DNA from: Catajapyx aquilonaris
Taxonomy: Eukaryota
DNA length: 64,000 nt
Reading direction: 5' to 3'
NCBI GenBank assembly: GCA_000934665.2
Contig: JYFJ02001604.1
Span: 1 to 64,000 of the forward strand
Shown here piece after piece: positions 9,716-64,000 of this stretch. The first letter of the stretch is position 1. The number at the start of each line of letters is the position of its first letter. The position numbers and the translations under genes are program-made. The notes beneath the pieces were generated by a model, which did no database searches, was not told the origin of the DNA, and saw nothing but the letters and a program-made list of their open reading frames with translations.

Positions 9716-11207
9716 TGTTCAAGAACGATAATTTTGTTAAAATATCAATATTATTAAATATTATTGCCAGGAGTTTGTAAGCCAGAAGAATGCCCTTCGG
9801 ATGCATTAGGATTAATATCAACGTCCAGAACAAACGTTGACTCTAGAAACTGCCAGGTGATGACATCCCTTGATGCCATGGAATCACAGTTATTTCAAAT
9901 CATTTGAGTTATTATGTGCCATAGAAAAGTGAGCCAGGTGTGTGGGTGCTAAATGTGCTACATGACTCAATTTAATACTCCTTAATTTTTAACCCGCTAG
10001 GAGACGTACCTCTTGCACAGCAATCTGTAGTTAAATGAAGGTGTCATGGAGAAGCAGTGTTGCCAAATAACGGAGTAAAAATCAATTTGTTTCACTGCAA
10101 ATTTTAAACAACATCCTGATCCAGGAGAATAACATGAAAACTCGGGACACAATTTGCAGTGATGCACCAAGTCAAGGTCATGTCAAATGATTAAATTGTG
10201 TTAAAATGTTGTTTTATACCTTCAAGTATGTACATTTAATTAGCTATAGTATTGGAACTTGTCTAATGTAATGATAAAATTGTCAGAAAATATACCTTGC
10301 TTTATAGTACGGCTTGTTAGTTGGGAAAAAAAGAAGTTACAGTCCCTTCCGGAAGAAAGCATGAAACTTGGCATGCACTTAGCTTTCATGTGTACGCTTC
10401 AATTTGGATGTGGGAACACGTCGAGAAATCATTGTTTCCCGCCAAATTTTTCGAAATTCAAAATGGCGGCTATAACAAGCGTAACTTTGCTGCAGACATA
10501 ATCAGTTGACACTGCGAGGTAATATAGGTGTCCACATATATGTTTTAGAGTACTAGAAATCCATTTCAATTATCAGATTTGGCGTAAAATTACAAAATGG
10601 ATGCCGAAAACCAAGATGGCGGCCGAAAATTCCAGAATTTGCTGCTAAAGTACAACAAAATTTGTTTAGCAGCGAATGTGGGAAATTTTGGTGATCATGT
10701 GTAATTTATTATTATTACTAGCAGTGGAACCCGTTCTTCGCACGGCCTGTTTCTATGGTAATCACCAACAAATGTCTCTTGCCATTGGCAAACGAAAATA
10801 TATATATTTTTGCCTTACATACGTAGATTATCAAAATATGTTATTTATTTATTAATTTATAGCAGCAAGCCGGTGTGTAGTGTCCGGTACATAGGTTGAA
10901 CATCATGTCAGTCAACGTACACAGAAGTGATCGAAAGCGGAGGGATAATTGGACAGTGTTATGCAATAATGGGTCAACCCACAAAAATGTCAAAATAATT
11001 GAGTTATGCCCAGGAACATACACCCAAAGGATAGCACTGGTAGGCTACTTCATTCAGTTAAAATCAAGGTGGCGAAATCTGCATACTTCTGTCACAAATG
11101 ACCGAAAAGGTAACTCACGAATGGTGTGCATGGACGGTGTTATGCAATGATTTGTCAACACACAAAAATGTCAAAATTGAGCCAAGCCCAGGAACATATA
11201 CCTAAAG

Positions 11208-11429
11208 CAGAGAGGTTCTTAACCTTTTCGGGCCTCCGCACCCCTTTGCAGACAATATATTGGTCCTTGTCGCACCCCCTATACCAGGGGTGATTGATTA
11301 CGTTCATAGTTAGACCAGTTATTAGCTCTTGGTTAGATTAAGTCCAGAGGTGCACCTTGCTCGCACCCCCAGGGAAGCCACCTATCGCACCCCCTGGAGG
11401 TGCGCGGGCACCCCAGGCTAAGAACCCTG
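11208..11429. mobile_element. hAT (Buster/Charlie-like) MITE
   Basis: CAG...GTTCTTAACC / GGCTAAGAACCCTG termini; 8-bp TSD ACCTAAAG / ACCTGAAG with central TA; subterminal CGCACCCC repeats. Confidence 0.8.
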
Positions 11430-11615
11430 ACCTGAAGGATCCTACTTCATTCAGTTAAAATCACGTTGGCGAAATCTGCATAGCTACTTCTGCCACAAAT
11501 GACCGAAAAGAACACTGAATTAATTTCACGGGTATGACCTGCAAAGCCCTTTTTCTCAAAACTCTTCTCATGTTGGTTGACGCATTATTGCATAACACCG
11601 TCCAATTATCAAATA

Positions 11616-12152
11616 CAGTAGGTACCTGTTTTACACCGCTCCATTTTACGCCGTTTTACATTAACGCCGGTTTGAAAATGACATTATACAATTTTTAAAT
11701 TGAAAAATAATTGTGACAAATATGACGATAACAACACAATCTGAACATAAGCACAACACTTCAACACTTTTGAGTCCAAATGCACCACCATAAAATAAAG
11801 TTATTTTTTTGTCTTTCGTGGTGCCTTGTGGCGGGTTCTATCGATAAATACAGTACTGTATTGTTGGTCTCATTGTAACCCATCGAAGTCTGTTAAAAAC
11901 CCTACGTCTACAGCAGTTCTTGCCAAAAGGAGGGAAAAGAGTCCTCAGAACCAGATGACCCTTAACCTGCAACCTCCCATTAAAACGCGCATTATAAATG
12001 TTTGATATAGTCGGAATTAAAAACTGCAATTTAAATCTTGGAATCTACCATATCTCATTTACTTCCATTATAATTTTGCCTCGTTTCCCCCCTTTTCATT
12101 TTACGCCGCGTTTTGCGGAAGCCAATTACCGGCGTAAAGCGGGTACTACGTG
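11616..12152. mobile_element. Tigger/pogo-like MITE
   Basis: TA|CAGTAGGTACCTGTTTTACACCG ... CGGCGTAAAGCGGGTACTACGTG|TA; repeated TTTTACGCC motifs. Confidence 0.65.
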
Positions 12153-12495
12153 TACCCTTATATGGGAAGCCTTGGGTGACTAGTAGCCTATAAGTGCGTT
12201 TTTCATACCTTGGAGTGGGCTACCAATGCACCGAATATCAAGAGAATCGGTGAGGTTTGAATTTGACCTCTGCCCCCCTCCAATATGGGTCACGGGGTCA
12301 TTTTGATTAGGTCACTATAGATGCGTTTTTCATGCCTTGGGGTGGGCTACCAATGCACCTAATTTCAAGAAAATCGGTGAGGTTGGAATTTCACGAGTTG
12401 AAAAATGTCCCAAGATGTCAGGGCAAATCTCAGGACATCATATGATGTCCATAGTCGCCAAAGGTTAATTTAGTGGCGTAGAAATATACACTTTG

Positions 12496-12814
12496 CAGGG
12501 TGTCTACAAATGATTGCAGCGGTTTCAAAAAATCACTGCGAGTTTTTTATTTAACATAGGGTATATCAAGAATTGCCATAGCAATCATTGTTGACCAACA
12601 ATGATTGCTATGGCAATTCTTGATATACCCGAGGTTCTAAGTTATACTGAGGTCGGTGCAACTGGCCCTAAGGGGGCACATATCGAGCACATGTAGGTGT
12701 CAAAGAAAACTTGGTGAGTTTCTCTATATATTTGTACAACAACTTCGATCCTATGTTAAATAAAAAACCCGCAGTGATTTTTTGAAACCGCTGCAATCAT
12801 TTGTAGACACCCTG
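12496..12814. mobile_element. Tc1/mariner-type MITE
   Basis: ~65-bp near-perfect TIR CAGGGTGTCTACAAATGATTGCAGCGGTTTCAAAAAATCACTGCG...; TA on the right flank; contains a 72-bp perfect hairpin (12559-12630). Confidence 0.8.
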
Positions 12815-13240
12815 TATAATTATGTATGATGTAATCCAGTTGTAACATTCCTGTCGCATTAAATATTTGTACTTCAAAGACTGTTTTGTGTTATTAATGT
12901 AAGGTGAAACCGTCGGCCATCTTGGTTTTCGGCATCCATTTTGTAATTGTATGCCAAATCTGATAATTGAAATGGATTCCTAGTACTCTAAAACATATAT
13001 GTGGACACCTATATAAATTACCTCGCAGTGTCAACTGATTATGTCTGCAGCAAAGTTACGCTTGTTATAGCCGCCATTTTGAATTTCGAAAAATTTGGCG
13101 GGAAACAATGATTTCTCGACGTGTTCCCACATCCAAATTGAAGCGTACACATGAAAGCTAAGTGCATGCCAAGTTTCATGCTTTCTTCCGGAAGGGACTG
13201 TAAATTTTGTAGTGGAGCTGTACTATTAAAATAAGATCCG

Positions 13241-33545: not shown

Positions 33546-34636
33546 AGGTTGAAAGGCAATGCTGGGCCAACCTCCTTAATATCAATAATAAAGAACTAAT
33601 ACTAATAAATTCCATTAATAGAAATAAGCCATAAAATAAAACCACGAAAAGTAATGGTAACTGGTGTATACAGTAAAATAATACACAGGTTTTTCCAGAT
33701 TCGTCGGTCACTTTTTGATAACTGATATCGCCCGATAGCAGTTATTTTTTGTAGCTTGTTGTGCCCTAACCATGTGGCACATTCTATAACTATTGCTATA
33801 TTCGACGCACTGGGAGTCGAATATACTGTAGCAGGGTGGTTCCATTTCAGATCAGGCCAGATCCAGAAAAGTTGTCAGGGCTTGGTCTCCGATTATTACG
33901 GATAAATTACACGAAGTACCGCTGTCGAAATGATGAAAATGACACTGGCTATTTTTCAGTGTCATTTTTTATTTGCCCTGAAAAAATTCATAACCGCAGG
34001 GGTACCAAATCTGATATTTCTCGAGGTTCATTTTTTCTCAACTTTGGACGCGTGTACCAATTTTCCTGTAAGTTACACAAAAGCCAAATTTGGAATGGAG
34101 CAACTGCCTACGTAGGTCTGAATTTTCGATATAAAATAATTGCGAATCTATAACATTAGCAACCGCGAAAAAAATTGGCAAAAATGCTGTTTTACGACAT
34201 TTTAGCAGATTTCGCGAAATTTTTTCATTTGCAAATTTTTTTGTGGGCAAATGAAACATATAGACTTTCAATACAACTCCTCCCCTCTCTATTTATCAGC
34301 TTTGTTAAGCTTTGAAGTCAAAGGTTAACAGAGGAGTCATTGTTGAACATTGTTAACTTCGCAAACCATGGTTTGGAAGAAAATAATTTTATCAAAAACA
34401 CCACGAGATAATTGAACGCCTATTTATTTCTGGGCAGAGGAACATCTGAGCCACACACCCTTGCAAAAATATTTTTCCCCCCAGAGGTATTTGAATTTTA
34501 TTACTTACTCGTTTCCCGGCGCTTGGAGCCCACTGACTCATGGCCAGATGGCCAAGACTCATATTGCCAAGGTTGAACACCTGCGCAGAGTAGTTCGTCA
34601 TGGGACATCTTTTAGCACTGGTAGGTAGTAAACAAG

Positions 34637-36772
34637 TAGTCCAGGTGCTAAGGGACAAATTTGACCCAAACTTCGCATTTTGTGACAAAAGTATGAAACT
34701 CGGTACACTTGTCCTATGGACACTTCTGATCATATCTGGACGTGGAGCCACGATGACCCACCCCGGTGGTGGTCCATTTCGCAGGGTTTCCATAACTACA
34801 AGATGCAGCATCCTTTTAGGACCTTGTATTGGGTGACAAAAACATGAAACTCGCCACAATTGGTCTTTGGACACTTCTGAACATGTCTGGATGTGGGGCC
34901 ATGATGACTGACCCCGCTGTGGGTCACTGGCAGGGTTACCAGATCTAACGGACCAAACATACATCTCTGCGAAGATCATGTGAATTGGGAGCTTGCATTC
35001 GGTGATAAAAGCGTGAAACGCGGTACGGTAGTTCTTCGAACACATCTCAACATATCTGGACGTGAGGGCACGGTGGGTGACCCCTGGTGGCCTCGCCAGG
35101 GGTCACTATCGCGGAGTTGCCAAATCGAACATGTGTTGCACACCTTTACATGAAAAAGGGCCTTGCATTCGGTGATAAAACACTGCTAAAACATGAAACT
35201 CGCCCCAATTGGTCTTTGGACACTACTGAACATATCTGTAAGAGAGCCCACTATGGATGACCCCGCTGGGGTCACTCGCAGGGTTGCCAGATCTAATGGG
35301 CTCTCTAAGTAAACTATGTGAATAGGGAGCTTGCATTCGGTGACGAAGACGTGAAACTCGGTACAATATAGTTCTTTGCACACTTCCGAACATATCTGGA
35401 CGTGGGGACACGATGACCCACCCCGGTGGAGGGCACTATCATGGTGTTGCCAAATCTAACAGACTGTGCAGCATGCGTTTATATTTTGATACGGAGCTTG
35501 CATTTGGTGACAAAGACGTGACACTTGGTAGAATTGTTCTTTGGACACTTCCGAACATATCTGGACGTGGAGCCACGATGACCCACCCCGAGGTTGGGCA
35601 CTATCGCAGGGTTTCCATATGCAACATGTGCTTATATTTAAATAATGAGCGTGCATTCGGTGGGTCATCGTGGCTCCACGTCCAGATATGTTCGGAAGTG
35701 TCCAAAGAACTAACGTACCAAGGTTTATGGCTTTGTCACCGAATGCAAGCTCCCTATTCATATGGAGAATTCCTAGGTTGGCCCGACTATATACGGCAAC
35801 GCCGCGATAGTGCCCTCCCTCGGGGTGGGTCATCGTGGCTCCACGTCCAGATATGTTCGGACGTGTCCAAAGAACAATTCTACCAAGTTTCACGTCTTTG
35901 TCACCAAATGCAAGCTCCCTAACAAAATATAAACGCATGTTGCACAGTCTGTTAGATTTGGCAACACCATGATAGTGCCCTCCACCGGGGTGGGTCATCG
36001 TGTCCCCACGTCCAGATATGTTCGGAAGTGTGCAAAGAACTATATTGTACCGAGTTTCACGTCTTCGTCACCGAATGCAAGCTCCCTATTCACATAGTTT
36101 ACTTAGAGAGACCATTAGATCTGGCAACCCTGCGAGTGACCCCCAGCGGGGTCATCCATAGTGGCCTCACTTACAGACATGTTCAGTATTGTCCGAAGAC
36201 CAATTGGGGCGAGTTTCATGTTTTATCAGTGTTTTATCACCGAATGCAAGGCCCTTATTCATGTAAAGGTGTGCAACACATGTTCGATTTGGCAACTCCG
36301 CGATAGTGACCCCTGGCGAGGCCACCAGGGGTCACCCACCGTGACCCCACGTCCAGATATGTTGAGATGTGTTCGAAGAACTACCGTACCGCGTTTCACG
36401 TTTCTATAACCGAATGAATGCAAGCTCCCAATTCACATGATCCTCGCAGAGATGTGGTATGTTTGGTCCGTTAGATCTGGCAACCCTGCAAGTGACCCAC
36501 AGCGTGGTCAGTCATCATGGCCCCACATCCAGACATGTTCAGAAGTGTCCAAAGACCAATTGTGGCGAGTTTCATGTTTTTGTCACCCAATACAAGGTCC
36601 TAAAAGGATGCTGCATCTGGTAGTTATGGAAACCCTGCGAAATGGACCTCCACCGGGGTGGGTCATCGTGGCTCCACGTCCAGATATGATCAGAAGTGTC
36701 CAAAGGACAAGTGTATCGAGTTTCATACTTTTGTCACAAAATGCAAAGTTCAACCCCTTAGTACCCGGACTA
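34637..36772. mobile_element. Academ-like foldback element built of ~150-180-bp modules in palindromic arrangement
   Basis: TAGTCC...GGACTA termini; 3-bp TSD AAG (34634-34636 / 36773-36775); module GCATTYGGTGACAAA..TGAAACTCG..GGACACTTCCGAACATATCTGGACGTGG..CACGATGACCCACCCC repeated ~6x on + and ~7x on -. Confidence 0.8.
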
Positions 36773-36987
36773 AAGCGACTCATTGGAGCTCCAGTGTCAG
36801 TCCTGAGAAAAGTAGCTTGCTGCTCAGTTTTGCAATTGTGGATCTCGTGCAGTGTCACACACATTGTAGTATGGAGGCAAGTAAGATTTGGAGTGATGGG
36901 CGTGTCAGGTGTGCGGACTACGGCAAGCGCCACAAGAAGATCATCTTCCAAAAAGCTCATCATGTATTCAGGGCAGTTGGGGATTTA

Positions 36988-37815
36988 GGGGCGGATTCTC
37001 GTGGACTTTACGGGAGGCCCGCAAGTCTCAAACGCCCGTATCGCCCCGGCAACTAAAAAAAACTCCCGAAGTGGAATTCTCGTGTCGCGCTCCCGCAAGG
37101 GCTGTGGGAAGGAAAGGCCCGCAAAGATACGGGTGGGTGGCAGCACCTGTAAGTGTGCCTGTAAGTCCTGTAAGTCACCTGTCGCTCTCAAAAATGGCCG
37201 CTTCCCCGACAGCAGCTGTGTGTCCGTAAGGCGGGGATCGAACACGGATAAACACGGCCCAGGGGCCCTTCCACGAGTCCTGGAGTGTCTTCCATGCGAG
37301 CCACAATTGCCTCTTTTTCACGGTCATCCCAGTTCGGCCGGCGAGGGGTGCGGGCGGAACCCGGGGCAGACTTCTTTCCCGGCATCGTCTTCGATCTCAC
37401 CTTGCTAGCAGCAGACCAAAGCGCAGCAGACACTCCAGATTCGAATGTCCCAGATTCGAATAAGGTCATTGACCTTAGACTCGGTTGCCTACTGCACACT
37501 CTCGCGACGTTTGCCCGAACTGAATTCTCGCTGTTCTTTTCTCAATAGCGTTTAATCCCGTCGCTGTCCATTGTGCGGCGGTGGGAATGCACCCTTTTCT
37601 CCTCTGCCATTGGCTCATGTCCGTTTCCGGTGGGCGGAGCTACAAGAACCCCCGTATCTCCCCCCTACTTTCAATTCTTTCTTGTAAGGACTTACAGGGT
37701 ACCACATTTATTCCACTTTTTCGGGGTCCCGCATCCGTCGCCATCTTGGACGGACTTGCGGGCCCGCATCTCCTGCGGGCCCGCAGACTTACAGGAGTCC
37801 ACGAGAATCCGCCCC
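36988..37815. mobile_element. PIF/Harbinger non-autonomous element (828 bp)
   Basis: TTA|GGGGCGGATTCTCGTGGACT ... AGTCCACGAGAATCCGCCCC|TTA; subterminal GGCCCGCA and CTGTAAGT repeats. Confidence 0.9.
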
Positions 37816-39765
37816 TTAACAGGCAAACTGAAAAAACTTGGGTCCATTGATGCGGATAGTGATGATCGTCTGTGCTATAAGTGCTTCGCGTATTACGAGA
37901 AACTCACGGCAAATGTTTCAAGTGAAGACGAAGAACCATGTGCAAGTACCTCCTCACCAGACCAGACTTTCATACCTGAGCTCACCCCGGGGGAATGTGT
38001 TGCCCGTGTTAATGAAAGCGTGCGGGAATTATCGGCGACAGATATGTCACCTTTGAAGACACCCAGCAGAATTAATCGTGACAGGAGGAAGGCGTATGCA
38101 GAAAGGAAAAGCGAACAACTTAGAATAGGTTCCAAGAAGCGAATCCGAGAGTTATACAACGTGTCAAGCGATTCTAGTGCCAATGATAGTGATGTGAAGT
38201 GCGGAGAGTGCGAATTGTGGCAGGAAAATGTGAAGTATGCAGTTGCGAACGGCCGAACAACTAGTGAAAAAATTAGGCTGTTAACACTTGTCCCAAATAC
38301 CTTGCCGAGGGACACCATCATGAGAACCTTTAATGTCACAAAGTACATGGTGGACAAGTCCAAGAAGATGGCATTGCAAAGGGGTGTATGGGCTCCATCT
38401 GATCCTTATCTGGGCCATAGTGTGAGTGATGAGGTCATCAAAAAAGCATGCCACAGACTACTTTCTGGAAGATCACATGGACTGCAGTAGGCAGAGTCCA
38501 AATAAGAACTTAGATGTTATCAGTGTCATGGAGAACGGGGAAAAGACGCAAAAAATAAAACGATATAATTATGACAAGGTCGATTCAAGAGACATACAAA
38601 CTTTTCAAGAAGCAGAACCCAGGTATTCAGCTGGGACATTCCAAGTTTTACAGTCTCCTGCCAAAATGGGTCAAGTACCACCCTGAAAGGAATGTGTGTG
38701 TGTGTGCGTGTACTGTGCCAATCTGAAATTGTGCTGTGCCGCACTCAGCAAGCTAGTGACATCTGCAGTGACCAACTCTGACCTGTTCCATCTCTGCCTC
38801 TGCCCATGTCCGACTGAGGAATGTTGGAACATGGAATGTGTTGAGTGTCCAGGAACTGAAGGACTATCTACAGAAAGCTTGTTCCTGACAGCCTATGACG
38901 ACGAAGAAGTGTCATTTGCAGTGTGGGGGCATAATGACCTAATCAAGAGAACATCATCAGTTGCTTCTTTTGTAGACAATGAACTTGTCCACTGGACTAC
39001 GAAAGTAATAACTCACGAACATGTACGAACGATTCAGCGAGAGGCAGTGCAATATAGTGACTCGCCCCTAGTATTACATTTCGATTTTGCTGAAAATTGG
39101 ACTGTAATACTTCCCGACGAAATTCAGAGCTACCACTGGGCGAAGACGCAGATCACAGTGTTCACCTGCGTGGCATACTGGGGTGACAACGTGAGGAGTG
39201 TCGCTGTTGTCAGTGACGATACGTCGCATGACTCGGCTCATGCTATTCTAGGATTTCTAGCGAGAATGAAAGTTGAAGAATCGATCATTGGGCAGAATAT
39301 TAGTCGAGTTTCCTACGTGTCCGATGGTGCACCCAGTCATTTTAAAAACATATACCAAAAATATGAACTTGAGCAAAGTGAAATTCCTGAGAGGGAATGG
39401 GTCTTCACAGCTGCCGGGCATGGGAAAGGACCCTGCGATGGAGTAGGAGGCCTAGTGAAGCATAAGGCCGGCCGCAAATCTTGCAATGAAGGTGCGACGT
39501 TGCAGCAACATGTTGCATCGAGACAGGATGCGCGCGCAGCTTCATTGCGATGCTACGTCACATCGCATGGCCAACGCAAATCATCCAATATCGGGAGCAA
39601 TGGATGGCAAAAAGGCGGCAGAGTTGAAACAGGTGCCTGTGACGGCCAAAAGGGGGCAGACTTGAACTGCATGCAGTTCAAGTCTGCCCCCTTTTGGCCT
39701 TTGCCTATTGTCAGCTGGGCAGACCTTGCTCCTGTCGCGATCGCGACCGGTCTGGAAGAAAGAAC

Positions 39766-41494
39766 ATGGACGACTCTGCAACATTGTGTCTGACTGCGGC
39801 TGTTGCTGCCACAGCTCTCATGGTAATTGCGGTCGCCACCGACATGGGAACGAGACGCAGGAGAGGGAAAACAAGGACATGGATACTAAGGCGTCCCAAA
39901 ATGGGAGTATTCAACACTCTGCTTCGTGAGCTTCGTTACGAGGATCCTACATCATACAGGTACAGTATTTCAAAAATGAAAAGGCAGTCGCATAATTATG
40001 ATTTATTGACTCTGGCAATAATCAGGCATGATTTTTGGCATCCAGAAAAGTTTGTATAATTTCATTTAAAAAAAAAAAAATCTGCTAGTGACACTGTGTT
40101 CCATTCCTTGACAGAAACTGGCTCAGAATGGATGTAGAATCTTTTGATTATTTGGCACATCTGGTTGGAGCCAGAATTAGAAAAAGGGACACAGCTTTCC
40201 AGGCAGCAGTCACCGCAAAGGAGAGGCTTGCTCTAACTCTTCGCTTTCTGGCCTCTGGGAACTCATTCAAGGACCTGCATTACATTTTCCGCCTTGGTGA
40301 ACGCACCATTTCATACATTGTGTTAGAGACATGCCAGGCTATCAGTACAGAATTGGCTGGTATGATCTCCATACCAACTACTCCAGCTCAATGGAAATTT
40401 GTAGCAGAAGCATTTGATCAAATGTGGAATTTTCCAAACTGTTTGGGAGCTATTGACGGAAAACACATTGTTTTAAAGAAGCCCCACCTTTCAGGCTCCC
40501 ATTACCACAATTATAAGGGGACTGAATCAATTGTGTTAATGGCAGCTGTAGATGCCAACCTCAAATTCATTTACATAGATGTAGGAACAAATGGCAGAAT
40601 TAGCGATGGAGGAGTATGGAACAAGTGCAGGCTCAGCCAACACCTTGCCATGGGTTGTCTAAACCTACCACACCCAGAGCCGCTACCAGGAAGTGTAACA
40701 CCAACGCCGTATGTGTTTGTGGCGGATGATGCCTTTCCTTTGAAAGAAAACATCATTAAGCCCTATCCTATCCGCAACTTGAGTTATGCTGAACGAATTT
40801 ACAACTACAGGTAACAAGCATGAAAATATTGCTTCATTGATAACATGATAATCATCCTATTCAAACGATTTCATTTCAGACTGTCAAGAGCACGCAGATG
40901 CGTCGAGAGTGCTTTCGGGATACTAGCAAACAGGTTCCGCGCCCTGCTGACACCAATGGCACTCCAGCCAGACAAAGCCGCAATAATTGTACATGCCTGT
41001 TGCACCCTGCATAATTTCCTACGTTCACGGCCGGGTGCAGTGGGTGTGTACAGCCCTGGCTACTTGGTGGACCAGGAGGACCAAGTATCAGGGAAAATTG
41101 CTGAAGGATTGTAAGTGCAGCACAGCATATGCTATGTACTATAATATGCCCAGTATATGTTCTACTTCAGTAGTTCTCTGAACAAAACTCACTCAGCACT
41201 AGATACTAATTCCAATAATTGAATGTAGAGCTTCAGTACTAAATGCGAAGAGAAACTTGCTTTAAACTTGCCTCACACTAACTTGTCAACCTGTGGGAAT
41301 AAAAAGTCTGAACAACATTAACTAATGCTTTCAGGTGGCGTAGAGACGACCATTCGCACTCCATGCTGAAATTGCAACCGACACAAGCACGAAATCATCT
41401 GGCAGAAGCTAAGCAGATGCGAGAAGCCTTTAAGTATTACTTCACATCCCCGCGTGGTGCTGTGTCATGGCAAGACAAAGCCATACAGAAATGA
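39766..41494 (+). CDS. Harbinger DDE transposase (HARBI1-like family), 426 aa; exons 39766-39959, 40115-40810, 40880-41110, 41335-41494
   Basis: GT-AG introns join in frame (1281 nt); motifs YRNWLRM, LRFLASG, GAIDGKH, NYKG, VADDAF, LSRARRCVESAFGIL and GAVSWQ. Confidence 0.93.
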
Positions 41495-41843
41495 AGCCTC
41501 GCCCATCTCAAAAACTTCTACAAAGGTTGTTGGTGAGAGCTCATGCCAAACCTTTTTCCATGGGCCAGAGAGAAATATGCTGAGAAGGCAAAAAATGTGT
41601 CACAAAGTTTAAAGCATCGCTTGGTTCCAATTCATGGATCAGTCCTGCGGCAAGATTATGCTATCATTCCTGTATTAGATTTTAGTAGCTAATTACCTCT
41701 TTGCATGTTGCAGTTGAATGCAAATTCCTTTGCCGTTGAAGATGTCTTTCCACCTCCCTCATTCCCCCCACTCACTGCAGTCCTAAGACACATAAACTAG
41801 AGCATTAATGAAACTGTTCTTCATTATTGAACATCCAACAACT

Positions 41844-43762
41844 TTATTTCTCCTCCTCCATCATGTATTGCAGAGTAATCTGATTAATATCAACCAGTGC
41901 CTTTTGTTGGTTAATTTTTGACAGGGATCTTAACTGATGGGCCACTGCGTGGCATGCATGATCCAGGTGATCTGTCATGGTGATGGTGTTGGTGTTGGTG
42001 TTGGTTTTGGTTTCCAGCTTGGCCATGGCAGTGGACAACACAGCTGCTGCCCCACCCAGGAATTCCACCCTTGCTTCACTTTCCAGCTTCTTCTTCTTCT
42101 TTGGTGGGATCACTACTTGCAAGTCAGGGCTTGGGGAGTTGGAAGGGGTGGTAGGGGATGAGGATTGGGATACATCTTGGGAATAGGAATAGTCTGGGTC
42201 TGGGTCGTCTGAATCCAGAACCTGTGAAGAGAAGAGGAAATTTGCTGTACAATGTGAAAAATAATACTCCCCACTCTGTTAAGAATTATACAGTTACCGT
42301 CACACTCGGTTCCTCCGTGCATGGCAGAGAGTCCTTGCTGGGGTCAGGATTAGCATCCCCCAGGAAGCTCATGGCCTGGAAGTGGTGCCACTTTGACACA
42401 CATGTGGAAGAGGCACCACTTCCAGACGGGGGCTGCTGCTGCTTCTTCTTCTCCCTGCCAAATGTTGTCCTCAAATTTCGAAACTTGAGTTTCATGTCAT
42501 TCGCTGTACAGAAAACAAATATATTCACAACATGTCATTAGTGTTTTTTCCCACATTCATGTAATTGAAATTCCTTCATTGCTGCTTGTCATGCCTTATT
42601 CAAAAATAATGAAATTGAATAAAGGGAATAATATTAATTTTAAAACCCAATTTGTGACTTTTGTGCGTTTCATTTGTTTATTATCACCGTAACAATCCGA
42701 AGCAATACATCCTATTCGGATGATTTCCATCCCATTTGTTTTTCATATTCTCTCACAGCAGTTGTGGAGCTGGTGGTGGTCAAGCGAATTGTATGGTACA
42801 TCATCACGTGGAAGTCGCTTACAATTTGCAGGTCGATAACTGTTTACAGAGATCAAGTGATGCTGGGCGACCTAGCGACTGGTAATAGTCTCCTCAGTCT
42901 GTTTATCCCGGTGCCGTGCACCGTCGCTAGGCCGCCCAGCACCACTTACTCTCTGTAAACAGTAATAAGTGACCTGTACACAGTAATCGACTTCCATATG
43001 ATGATGTCTGAACGGTTCGGTTGCCAGGTACTGCCAATGCCGTCGTTTACATTTAGGGACTGCTAATATGTCCAGCACAAATGCGCTTTCAACCAGAAAA
43101 TGTGATGAAGGACAAATCAACAGAAGACAGTAACCAAGGAGTACTGCACAGAAAATAAATTTTCACCATTTCCTCACTTGTTACTGTCAGGCAGGTTTGT
43201 GAGGCCCAGTCTGCACTCTGTACTGCAATGATTTTAACTGGCACCATATAAGCTGCATTTACATGCGAGTGATTTGAGTGATATGCGACCAATTGTTTTG
43301 GGCAAAAATATATTGCTACCACTCAGGGTCCTATTGCACATCACTGCACTTCCTGATCAAATTTCTCACATGTAAACGCGCTTTCATTGCTGATTAGAAA
43401 CCACGTACCTAAAAAAAAAACACCTGGCTCAGTTTTCATAACTTACCCGTGTACTGGCTGAAGCCAGCCGCCGCCATGGCCTCTTTTCCTGGCACATTCA
43501 TAAGGTAATCCCGTACATGTCGTTTAAAGTAGTCTTCATGCTTGTGGTCCCACAGACTCGGTTGTGCTGAAAATACAGCCAATTGATGACCGGTGCCCAA
43601 CTCAACATCAACCCCTTCGGCCCCAGGGCTCTTTTCCCCCTATATTGCCATCCCCTACGCTTGTAGGCGACTGAGGCCGAAGGGAGTTAACTACTTACTA
43701 CGGTAAAACGCGATTAATGCCTCCTCCGCCTCGAAACTCCATTCCGGCCTGTTCGGCGCCAT
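41844..43762 (-). CDS. Harbinger Myb/SANT-like MADF DNA-binding protein, 255 aa; exons 43762-43699, 43566-43447, 42503-42298, 42221-41844
   Basis: GT-AG introns join in frame (768 nt): MAPNRPEWSFEAEEALIAFYRTQPSLWD...KLKFRNLRTTFGREKKK...SGSG...SKWHHFQAMSFL; basic PKKKKK NLS-like run; BESS-like C-terminus. Confidence 0.9.
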
Positions 43763-44162
43763 CTTGGAAATTGCCTCCGATGGGGGGAGTTTTCAAGCAG
43801 TGCTGGAAACCTGCAACACACCTGCGACCTCGGAGGAAAGCGGCGCGCGCACCCTGCGCCTGCAACATGTTGCTGCAACGTCGCACCTTCATTGCAAGAT
43901 TTGCGGCCGGCCTAATGCAACAGCGTACAACTTGCGGCACAGTGCAACAGAAGCCATAAAAACAAATCACAAAATTTCGTGAAACTAGGGAGAAACTATG
44001 GCAGACAGTGAAACCGTTTCATGGTATACAGTCCAGCCATTACTGGAACGTGAAACGTGGCCAGGTTACTGTGGAAAGAACAGCGCAACATTTGGTGTGA
44101 CTTCTGGAAAAATGTGAGTAAGACTTTGCAAATCCCTCTATGCCTGATTTGACCTCACCGGT

Positions 44163-63401: not shown

Positions 63402-64000
63402 TTAAGCAAAAGCGGCAAATTGTGATAAAAGCAATTCCTTTAGTACAGTTGTTAATATATTGGACCAATTAAAACGATTTGGCCCTGTGTTCCGACAATT
63501 TCACCCCTTAGGACTCGAATGGGCGGCCATTTTCCAAAATAGCTGCAGAGTTTTTTTTTTTTTACATTTTTTTGTTGTCGTAAACTTATAACTAAGTCAT
63601 TGGTCTTCTTAGACTAAACCGGGGTCGGAGATTACAAATCTGCAGTCAAAACAGTGAATAAGCAATTTTTCGAACGTTTTCAGGACGATTTCTACGAAAA
63701 AGTTCACATCTGTGTGGAACTTGGTGTGGAAGTAAATAATGCCGTAATGGCGGTTGATCTTGACGGCTTATATGCTGGGCTGCAGTGATCATTCTGGTGC
63801 CATTTCGCATTTCCTAGGTTTTCGGGGTCAAGAACTCAATTCTGACATTTCCAAAGCCCTCAGAGGTCAAAGGTCATTGTCTGGAGTACGGATAGTACAT
63901 GAGTTCCGATAGCCGCTGGTGGTCCTCTACCGCCATCCACCTCTTCTGCGATGATACTGATGGTTTTTGACTGTTATGGATTCTATTTTTTTTTGTATTT

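What the first reader, a model, noticed from the sequence alone, without database searches (positions are those of the whole stretch)
34637..36772. Shared 56/46-bp left/right end asymmetry in two unrelated Academ-like elements: a possible 12/23-like rule
Seen: this element and the one at 10305-13225 both have TAGT...ACTA termini and 3-bp TSDs, but their arms are otherwise not alignable by eye. Both carry the motif AAAG(C/T)ATGAAACT(T/C)G near each end. In both, the ATG lies exactly 56 nt inside the left terminus (10305->10361; 34637->34693) and exactly 46 nt inside the right terminus (13225->13179; 36772->36726). Here the difference comes from a 14-nt vs 4-nt spacer between an 18-bp terminal box (TAGTCCRGGTRCTAAGGG) and the long arm. 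Known: RAG recombination signals pair spacers differing by about one helical turn (12/23), and ProtoRAG ends are asymmetric. Inference: the mobilising transposase may require one short and one long end. I do not recall this being described for Academ, but it rests on only two elements and on a tentative superfamily call.
Basis: partly seen in the sequence, partly recalled or inferred. Interest (0 to 1): 0.85.

Follow-up and report, generated by a model that had tools for sequence, protein, structure and literature searches.

The report
Transposon lineage with unequal ends
Two gene-less jumping-DNA copies belong to a widespread animal transposon lineage whose two ends differ by about one turn of the DNA helix, much like the fruit-fly P element and antibody-gene recombination signals.

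Summary
In both elements (10305-13225 and 34637-36772) a conserved 16-nt motif lies 56 nt inside one terminus and 46 nt inside the other, and both have 3-bp target duplications. Contigs of one public sample break exactly at 34637 and 36772, which fixes the termini.

A pattern scan of metagenome contigs found at least 124 loci with the same end design. The box-to-motif gaps are bimodal: 31-34 nt or 41-44 nt, none at 35-40. They form about 9 short-end and 9 long-end sequence clusters. Of 27 complete copies of one family, 26 carry one short and one long end.

Full-length relatives are about 6 kb and encode a roughly 1,500-aa protein. Its core is a DDE domain closest in fold to P element transposase (Z 11.2). 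Its C-terminus is a FEN/XPG-like nuclease.

The two elements are distant relatives, not unrelated. Spacer length is conserved while spacer sequence is not, which points to constraint. A strict short/long pairing rule remains untested. The P element's 9/21 spacing is a known precedent.

The parts
10305..13225 (.). Element 1: 2,921-bp non-autonomous element with ~290-bp inverted arms. No homolog of the lineage's protein lies inside it.
   Evidence: Arms 10334-10526/13014-13206 (99%) and 10522-10625/12911-13014 (95%). tblastn with P0001-P0004 gave no window hit.
10302..10304 (.). Element 1 target-site duplication, left copy (TTA). The right copy is 13226-13228.
   Evidence: flanks.
10305..10312 (+). 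Element 1 left terminal box (8 nt, conserved across the lineage).
10313..10355 (+). Element 1 long spacer (43 nt between terminal box and motif).
10356..10371 (+). Element 1 left copy of the 16-nt subterminal motif.
10401..10420 (+). Element 1 second conserved block, in register with the same block of element 2 and of the metagenome families.
13169..13184 (-). Element 1 right copy of the 16-nt motif.
13185..13217 (-). Element 1 short spacer (33 nt).
13218..13225 (-). Element 1 right terminal box.
34637..36772 (.). Element 2: 2,136-bp foldback. Its two ~1-kb arms are built of about six ~165-bp subrepeats each, and most subrepeats carry a copy of the motif.
   Evidence: inverted repeats I1-I3 at 95-97%; direct-repeat family D2 with spacing 151-180.
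34634..34636 (.). Element 2 target-site duplication, left copy (AAG). The right copy is 36773-36775.
   Evidence: Termini fixed by contig break points.
34637..34654 (+). Element 2 left 18-nt terminal box.
34655..34668 (+). Element 2 left-only 14-nt segment between the box and the start of the long inverted arm.
34688..34703 (+). Element 2 outermost left copy of the motif (43 nt from the 8-nt box).
34732..34752 (+). Element 2 second conserved block.
36716..36731 (-). Element 2 outermost right copy of the motif (33 nt from the 8-nt box).
36751..36754 (-). Element 2 right 4-nt segment between the arm and the box.
36755..36772 (-). Element 2 right 18-nt terminal box.

Best explanation
Both elements are non-autonomous members of a widespread animal DNA-transposon lineage, most likely AcademX.

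Shared end design. Each end has an 8-nt terminal box, a spacer, a 16-nt subterminal motif, and a second conserved block about 30 nt further in. The spacer is 33 nt at one end and 41-44 nt (mostly 43) at the other, so the motif sits about one helical turn further from the cut site at the long end.

Shown. The design is found in many diverged families. One short and one long end occur per element. Spacer length is conserved while spacer sequence is not. Full-length relatives with these ends encode a protein with a DDE core and a FEN/XPG-like nuclease.

Inferred. A sequence-specific DNA-binding part of that protein binds the motif. Candidates are the N-terminal zinc-binding region and a winged-helix-like domain at residues ~126-211 of P0125. 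The DDE core works on the terminal box. The two spacings give the transpososome a distinguishable left and right end, as in the P element. They may favour or enforce short-with-long pairing.

The many motif copies in the arms of element 2 would act as extra binding sites.
For: Window. Identical 56/46 offsets and 3-bp duplications in two elements that BLAST cannot align but that agree in register (37/90 against 21.9 +/- 3.7).

Same genome. Both end types of element 2 are present in 15-23 contigs per run with different flanks (one sample).

Other genomes, exact pattern. Gaps were 28:1, 31:1, 32:7, 33:95, 34:4, 41:2, 42:7, 43:9, 44:2, and none at 35-40.

Other genomes, relaxed rescan. With any gap from 0 to 102 allowed, 109 hits fell at 31-34, 52 at 40-47, and 5 elsewhere.

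Clusters. The 9 short-end clusters have gaps 33 x7, 34 and 28. The 9 long-end clusters have 43 x5, 42, 41 and 44 x2. These counts include the two window elements.

Complete copies. 26 of 27 have one short and one long end, and 21 of 27 have perfect 3-bp duplications.

Length constraint. Spacer identity between clusters of equal length is only 0.42 (33-nt class) and 0.37 (43-nt class), against 0.27 expected by composition.

Conserved second block in register.

Autonomous relatives. Homologs of one protein lie just inside such ends in L005, L018, L024, L040, L048, L049, L054, L058 and L064. L040 (long end) and L054 (short end) overlap in one reading frame, which implies an element of about 6.1 kb.

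Protein folds. Residues 308-829 of P0125 align with P element transposase at Z 11.2, rmsd 5.0-5.2, 341-347 residues. Hermes scores 7.0, RAG1 6.7 and Transib 5.0. The C-terminal model's six top rows are XRN1/Rat1/EXO1 (Z 7.7-6.3); XPG, GEN1, FEN and T5 exonuclease (5.4-4.9) follow, with two short unrelated matches interleaved.

Invariant acidic residues fit both active sites.

Precedent. The P element's ends have 9- and 21-bp spacers between inverted repeat and transposase site, which its reviewers call reminiscent of the 12/23 signals (PMC7776569, passages).
Against: No experiment or computation here shows binding, or a need for unlike ends.

All 27 complete copies are one family, so 'one of each' could be pure descent.

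The long spacer varies (41-44, and 40-47 among individual copies) and one short-end cluster has 28. The rule is therefore not exact.

The link between end type and gene direction is inconsistent. The long end lies on the gene's 5' side in L005 and L040, and the short end on the 3' side in L054, L064, L049, L024 and L058. In L018 and L048, however, a long end lies 1.3-1.6 kb behind the stop codon, with no hidden short end.

The scan pattern required the terminal box and the motif, so lineages with other designs were not sampled.

The nuclease fold scores are below the Z of 8 that the tool treats as safe.

Assignment to Academ rests on features, not on comparison with a named Academ sequence.
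Confidence: 0.6

Rival explanations
1. The extra ~10 nt at the long end is a separate functional site rather than a spacer rule. It could be a second A-rich block for a bending or host factor, or part of the promoter or leader of the transposase gene. Non-autonomous copies would inherit it.
For: Left- and right-aligned consensus lines show an A-run about 21-25 nt from the terminus of long ends. They also show an A/T-rich block in front of the motif at both ends. In three clusters the long end reads like the short end plus an insertion next to that block (rows). In L005 and L040 the long end is on the gene's 5' side.
Against: The consensus is weak, with only a few columns at 70% or more, and was not tested against shuffles. 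In L018 and L048 the long end is on the 3' side. A promoter element would not need a fixed distance between terminal box and motif, yet length is conserved while sequence is not.
Confidence: 0.2
2. Neutral inheritance. An ancestor happened to have a 10-nt indel in one end, and all descendants keep it because indels are rare.
For: All families found share conserved blocks and so share ancestry. Within-family constancy needs no selection.
Against: Spacers of equal length are only 0.37-0.42 identical between clusters, against 0.27 by chance. Even so, 7 of 9 short-end clusters keep exactly 33 nt, and no gap of 35-39 was seen among 166 ends. Individual old copies do carry indels (gaps of 31, 32, 34, 40, 45-47, and the deletion in L044). 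Indels therefore happen but do not become fixed in families.
Confidence: 0.12
3. The elements are Tourist-like MITEs moved by a PIF/Harbinger transposase such as the one 3.3 kb downstream.
For: A 3-bp duplication that is TTA in element 1. The flank consensus of the element-2 family ends in TTA and begins with TAA or TTA. A DDE_Tnp_4 gene lies at 40092-41114 and a MADF gene piece at 42286-42534.
Against: That Harbinger copy has different inverted repeats (39460-39517/43861-43918). Full-length elements with these ends encode a different, ~1,500-aa protein without PF13359. Only 5 of 21 confirmed duplications in the large family are TAA or TTA.
Confidence: 0.03

Closest known systems
AcademX lineage of the Academ superfamily of DNA transposons (Kapitonov and Jurka 2010; Kojima 2020: both recalled, not held here. 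Kojima 2023, PMC10045372, passages seen)
   Same: 3-bp target duplications. One long protein that joins a DDE transposase core to a nuclease. Element length about 6 kb; a bivalve survey gives a mean of 5,565 bp for Academ and reports ORFs in Capitella (PMC10294476, passages). Relatives occur in cnidarians, annelids and amphioxus.
   Different: No named Academ sequence or profile could be compared. Whether the terminal box, the motif and the 33/43 spacing are already recorded for Academ consensus sequences could not be checked. The two window copies are gene-less, and one is a foldback of subrepeats.
Drosophila P element ends
   Same: Terminal inverted repeats plus an internal transposase-binding site whose distance from the repeat differs between the two ends (9 and 21 bp). 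Its reviewers liken this to the 12/23 signals (PMC7776569). The P element transposase is also the closest solved fold to this lineage's catalytic region (Z 11.2).
   Different: P makes 8-bp duplications and its transposase has a GTP-binding insertion and a THAP domain. Here duplications are 3 bp, spacers are 33 and ~43 nt, and a FEN/XPG-like nuclease is fused to the protein.
RAG recombination signals and Transib ends (12/23 rule; recalled)
   Same: Two classes of ends that differ by about one helical turn between a cut-site element and an inner element. RAG1 (Z 6.7) and Transib transposase (Z 5.0) are among the fold matches.
   Different: For RAG the pairing rule is shown by experiment. Here only the two length classes and their co-occurrence are shown. 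The sequences are unrelated.
Foldback-type elements (Drosophila FB and similar; recalled)
   Same: Element 2 has long inverted arms made of tandem subrepeats and no coding capacity.
   Different: Its termini, motif and duplication length are those of the Academ-like lineage. Its outermost 22-32 nt are not symmetric.

Membership tests
Academ (AcademX) | Target-site duplication of 3-4 bp (PMC10045372) | tested here: met
   3-bp direct repeats flank both window elements and 21 of 27 complete copies in the loci.
Academ (AcademX) | Encodes a DDE-type transposase | tested here: met
   This applies to the autonomous relatives only. Model of P0125 (pLDDT 79.8): residues 308-829 align with P element transposase at Z 11.2 (341-347 residues, rmsd 5.0-5.2); Hermes scores 7.0 and RAG1 6.7. 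Invariant acidic positions are D392/D395, D568 (90% or more) and E790. The window elements encode nothing of the kind.
Academ (AcademX) | A nuclease (XPG type, as recalled) in the same protein | tested here: met
   C-terminal model (pLDDT 84.2). About 16 of the first 27 VIA rows are FEN/XPG/XRN-class 5' nucleases, with Z 7.7 down to 4.0. Foldseek's weak rows name the same class. Conserved acidic residues fit. Caveats: Z is under 8, and Pfam and PDB sequence searches were silent.
Academ (AcademX) | Sequence similarity of the transposase to named Academ families (Repbase, or the Yuan and Wessler profile) | not testable with these tools
   No such sequences or profiles are held. The papers PMC7165386 and PMC3093488 are not held.
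PIF/Harbinger (Tourist-like MITE) | DDE_Tnp_4 transposase (with a Myb/MADF partner) in full-length elements that bear the same termini | tested here: not met
   Full-length elements with these ends encode another protein without PF13359. The window's Harbinger copy has other inverted repeats.
PIF/Harbinger (Tourist-like MITE) | TWA target duplication | tested here: inconclusive
   TTA for element 1 and AAG for element 2. The flank consensus of the element-2 family is TWA-like. 5 of 21 in the large family are TWA.
Transposons with a short/long end rule (RAG 12/23, P element 9/21) | Two classes of ends that differ by about one helical turn | tested here: met
   Gaps of 31-34 against 40-47, with none at 35-39 among 166 ends. 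Cluster modes are 33 and 43.
Transposons with a short/long end rule (RAG 12/23, P element 9/21) | Each element carries one end of each class | tested here: met
   Both window elements. 26 of 27 complete copies, all of one family. L040 plus L054, two contigs of one autonomous family.
Transposons with a short/long end rule (RAG 12/23, P element 9/21) | Recombination needs one end of each class | not testable with these tools
   This needs an excision or transposition assay.

The most novel reading that the evidence does not exclude
A short/long pairing requirement at the two ends is an old, shared property of the structural class of DDE transposases that includes P, hAT, Transib/RAG and this Academ-like lineage. 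The 12/23 rule of antigen-receptor recombination would then be one surviving instance of a general way to tell left from right. The Academ-like elements would offer an independent system to test how such a rule works.
Probability: 0.15. Interest if true: 0.8.

Novelty: new member of a known kind. Interest (0 to 1): 0.55.

Why it matters
As far as the searchable literature shows, Academ transposons are known only from sequence surveys. Nothing is in print there about how their ends are recognised.

The results give the lineage a conserved end plan with two fixed spacings one helical turn apart. The catalytic domain's nearest solved relatives are the P element transposase, Hermes and RAG1. Together these yield a concrete, testable model of end recognition.

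They also provide a third natural case, beside P and RAG/Transib, for asking how a transposase tells its two ends apart.

In practice, the box-gap-motif pattern is a sharp probe for finding and orienting these elements and their gene-less derivatives in animal genomes.

Tried and rejected
- Own genome: not held. No genome-wide census of the two window families was possible, and element 1's family was not examined at all.
- First metagenome scan, with element 2's own 18-nt box: 0 loci.
- BLAST between the two elements: nothing at E <= 0.01. The gapped local score was only marginal, with 12 of 500 shuffles as good. The relationship showed only in register.
- blastn of both elements against the 124 loci: 0 hits. 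The loci are therefore other families, not copies.
- PIF/Harbinger reading: I held it after and dropped it.
- Pfam on the lineage's protein: only a sub-threshold DUF6589 hit (E 0.0019). A profile search against PDB sequences gave nothing meaningful. The protein atlas gave unnamed clusters, most often cnidarian.
- Fixed link between the long end and the gene's 5' side: contradicted by L018 and L048.
- The idea that the long end holds a duplicated A-rich block: seen by eye only and not tested. I keep it as a lead.
- Possible third end at 63441: it has the terminal box with 2 mismatches, but no motif at either spacing.
- Papers not held: PMC7165386, the Sinzelle 2008 paper (by DOI and by a recalled PMC id), PMC4399808, PMC3093488. 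Prior description of Academ termini therefore cannot be excluded.
- Earlier notes of this scan: nothing on this genome or on Academ.
- Depth figures were not used as copy numbers.

Full report
**What is in the window**

The element at 34637-36772 is a 2,136-bp foldback.
- Three long inverted-repeat pairs (95-97% complementary) make up two arms of about 1 kb.
- Each arm is a run of about six subrepeats spaced 151-180 nt apart.
- An 18-nt box occurs only at the two termini.
- The long arms stop 14 nt short of the box on the left and 4 nt short on the right.

The element at 10305-13225 has arms of about 290 nt at 95-99% complementarity. These leave 29 nt of unmatched outer DNA on the left and 19 nt on the right.

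Both are flanked by 3-nt direct repeats, TTA and AAG. The motif with up to two mismatches occurs 9 times against 0.72 expected, always inside these two elements.

**Are the termini real?**

No genome is held for the window, so I laid Logan contigs of four public runs, all from one sample, on 34400-37000.
- In every run, 15-17 contigs lose similarity exactly before 34637 and 18-23 exactly behind 36772.
- Their flanks disagree with each other (agreement 0.40-0.43).
- Both the long-type and the short-type end of this family therefore exist at many different places.
- None of the 12 insertion/deletion rows shown lies in either spacer; 15 further rows were not shown.
- The flank consensus ends in TTA and begins with TAA or TTA.

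Because the four runs are one sample, possibly the one the window was assembled from, this counts as one piece of support, not four.

**Are the two elements unrelated?**

BLAST finds nothing between them, and a gapped local alignment is only marginal (12 of 500 shuffles as good). Compared without gaps in the register set by the motif, 51 of 108 positions agree, against 26.7 +/- 4.5 at 80 other shifts. With the motif left out it is 37 of 90 against 21.9 +/- 3.7, maximum 31. They are distant relatives that have kept their spacing.

**The same design elsewhere**

A scan of metagenome contigs with element 2's own box found nothing.

| Search | Short class | Long class | Other |
|---|---|---|---|
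| Exact pattern, 128 hits | 31:1, 32:7, 33:95, 34:4 | 41:2, 42:7, 43:9, 44:2 | 28:1; none at 35-40 |
| Relaxed, any gap 0-102, one mismatch in the box, two in the motif | 109 ends at 31-34 | 52 ends at 40-47 | 5 ends (28, 50, 80, 94, 94) |

- Grouped by sequence, there are 9 short-end clusters (33 x7, 34, 28) and 9 long-end clusters (43 x5, 42, 41, 44 x2), counting the window's four ends.
- None of these loci is similar to the window elements by blastn (0 hits), so they are separate families in other organisms.
- Behind the motif they share a second conserved block at a fixed distance. It is also present at 10401-10420 and 34732-34752.

**One of each per element**

Among the loci I could pair 27 different complete elements of 0.8-2.4 kb, all of one abundant family.
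- 21 have perfect 3-bp duplications.
- 26 have one short (32-34) and one long (40-46) end.
- The exception, L044, has a deletion inside its long spacer.
- The duplications are varied and A/T-rich. Only 5 of 21 are TAA or TTA.

**Length is conserved, sequence is not**

Between clusters of the same class, the spacers are 0.42 (33-nt class) and 0.37 (43-nt class) identical without gaps. Composition alone would give 0.27. Individual copies do show small indels (gaps of 31, 32, 34, 40, 45-47). Indels therefore arise, but they do not become the family state. This is the main argument that the two lengths are under constraint. It is an inference, not a test.

**What moves them**

Inside such ends, several loci encode homologs of one protein (tblastn).
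- L040 starts with a long end. L054 finishes with a short end. Their reading frames overlap by 18 identical residues, which gives an element of about 6.1 kb.
- The protein has several hundred relatives (at least 187 longer and 584 near-length hits), typically about 1,520 aa on contigs of 5-7 kb.
- Source names for these relatives include Acropora, Oculina, Nematostella, Actinostola, Capitella, Branchiostoma and Portunus.
- Pfam gives nothing but a sub-threshold DUF6589 hit.

Two structure models were made.
- P0125 (1,135 aa, pLDDT 79.8). Residues 308-829 align with the P element transposase at Z 11.2 (341-347 residues, rmsd 5.0-5.2). This is well above Hermes (7.0), RAG1 (6.7) and Transib transposase (5.0).
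- In the same model, residues ~126-211 resemble winged-helix DNA-binding domains (Z 5-7.4).
- C-terminal 327 aa (pLDDT 84.2). Most of its top matches are 5' nucleases of the FEN/XPG/XRN class: XRN1 7.7, EXO1 6.3, XPG 5.4, GEN1 5.2, FEN 5.0, T5 exonuclease 4.9. These scores are below the level the tool calls safe. However, six of the seven top rows belong to one class, and the conserved acidic residues fit.

**Which superfamily**

A review by Kojima states that AcademX elements carry a nuclease and make 3-4-bp duplications (PMC10045372, passages). A bivalve survey gives Academ a mean length of 5,565 bp and reports ORFs in Capitella (PMC10294476, passages).

I could not compare with any named Academ sequence, and the primary Academ papers are not held. 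I had briefly favoured PIF/Harbinger, because of the TTA-like targets and a Harbinger copy at about 39460-43918. That copy has other ends, and the full-length elements with our ends encode a different protein.

**How it most likely works**

- Shown: the end plan, the two spacings, and their co-occurrence and conservation.
- Inferred: a DNA-binding part of the protein sits on the motif, the catalytic core sits on the terminal box, and the extra helical turn marks one end as different.

The P element is the documented precedent. Its two ends have 9 and 21 bp between the inverted repeat and the transposase site, which its reviewers call reminiscent of the 12/23 signals (PMC7776569, passages). Whether unlike ends are required here is open.

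The relation to the gene's direction is not uniform.
- Long end on the gene's 5' side: L005 and L040.
- Short end 320-465 nt behind the stop codon: L054, L064, L049, L024 and L058.
- Long end 1.3-1.6 kb behind the stop codon: L018 and L048.

An alternative is that the long end carries an extra A-rich site rather than a mere spacer. That was seen only by eye.

**Novelty and limits**

Four literature searches found Academ only in annotation tables and in the passages cited above. None mentions its termini. The primary papers and Repbase were out of reach, so prior description cannot be excluded.

The scan pattern fixed the box and the motif, so only this branch was sampled. Element 1's own family was not examined. 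All complete copies come from one family.

I rate this a confirmed and generalised observation, and a new instance of a known kind of end asymmetry. It is of moderate interest, and its mechanism is untested.

Noticed in passing
window 39460-43918: A PIF/Harbinger copy: DDE_Tnp_4 exons at 40092-40814 and 40824-41114 (+) and MADF pieces at 42286-42534 and 43436-43639 (-). It is bounded by a 58-nt inverted repeat (39460-39517/43861-43918, 98%) and seems to be inserted into another coding element.
   Followed up: partly
window 37549-39793: Two long open frames (313 and 368 aa, + strand) without any Pfam family. They are probably part of another, unclassified mobile element that the Harbinger copy interrupts.
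   Followed up: no
window 63441-64000: A sequence that starts with the lineage's terminal box (2 mismatches to my 16-nt pattern) and later has a GC-rich block like one in the arms of element 1. It has no motif at either spacing. It runs off the window, so its other end is unseen.
   Followed up: partly
window 10459-10471 and 10611-10625; also arms in L066 and L088: A short GC-rich block recurs about 80-250 nt inside the ends of element 1 and of two metagenome families. From memory it resembles a YY1-type site. It could be an internal promoter element.
   Followed up: no
P0125 residues ~126-211: A winged-helix-like domain (matches to RFX, Rok and LmrR-type DNA-binding domains, Z 5-7.4) lies in front of the catalytic core. 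It is a candidate reader of the subterminal motif.
   Followed up: no
L034 4001-6368: Two copies of the abundant family lie head to tail, sharing a boundary at about 5260. The outer flanks form one matching duplication (AGT), as if one copy had inserted at the very end of another.
   Followed up: no
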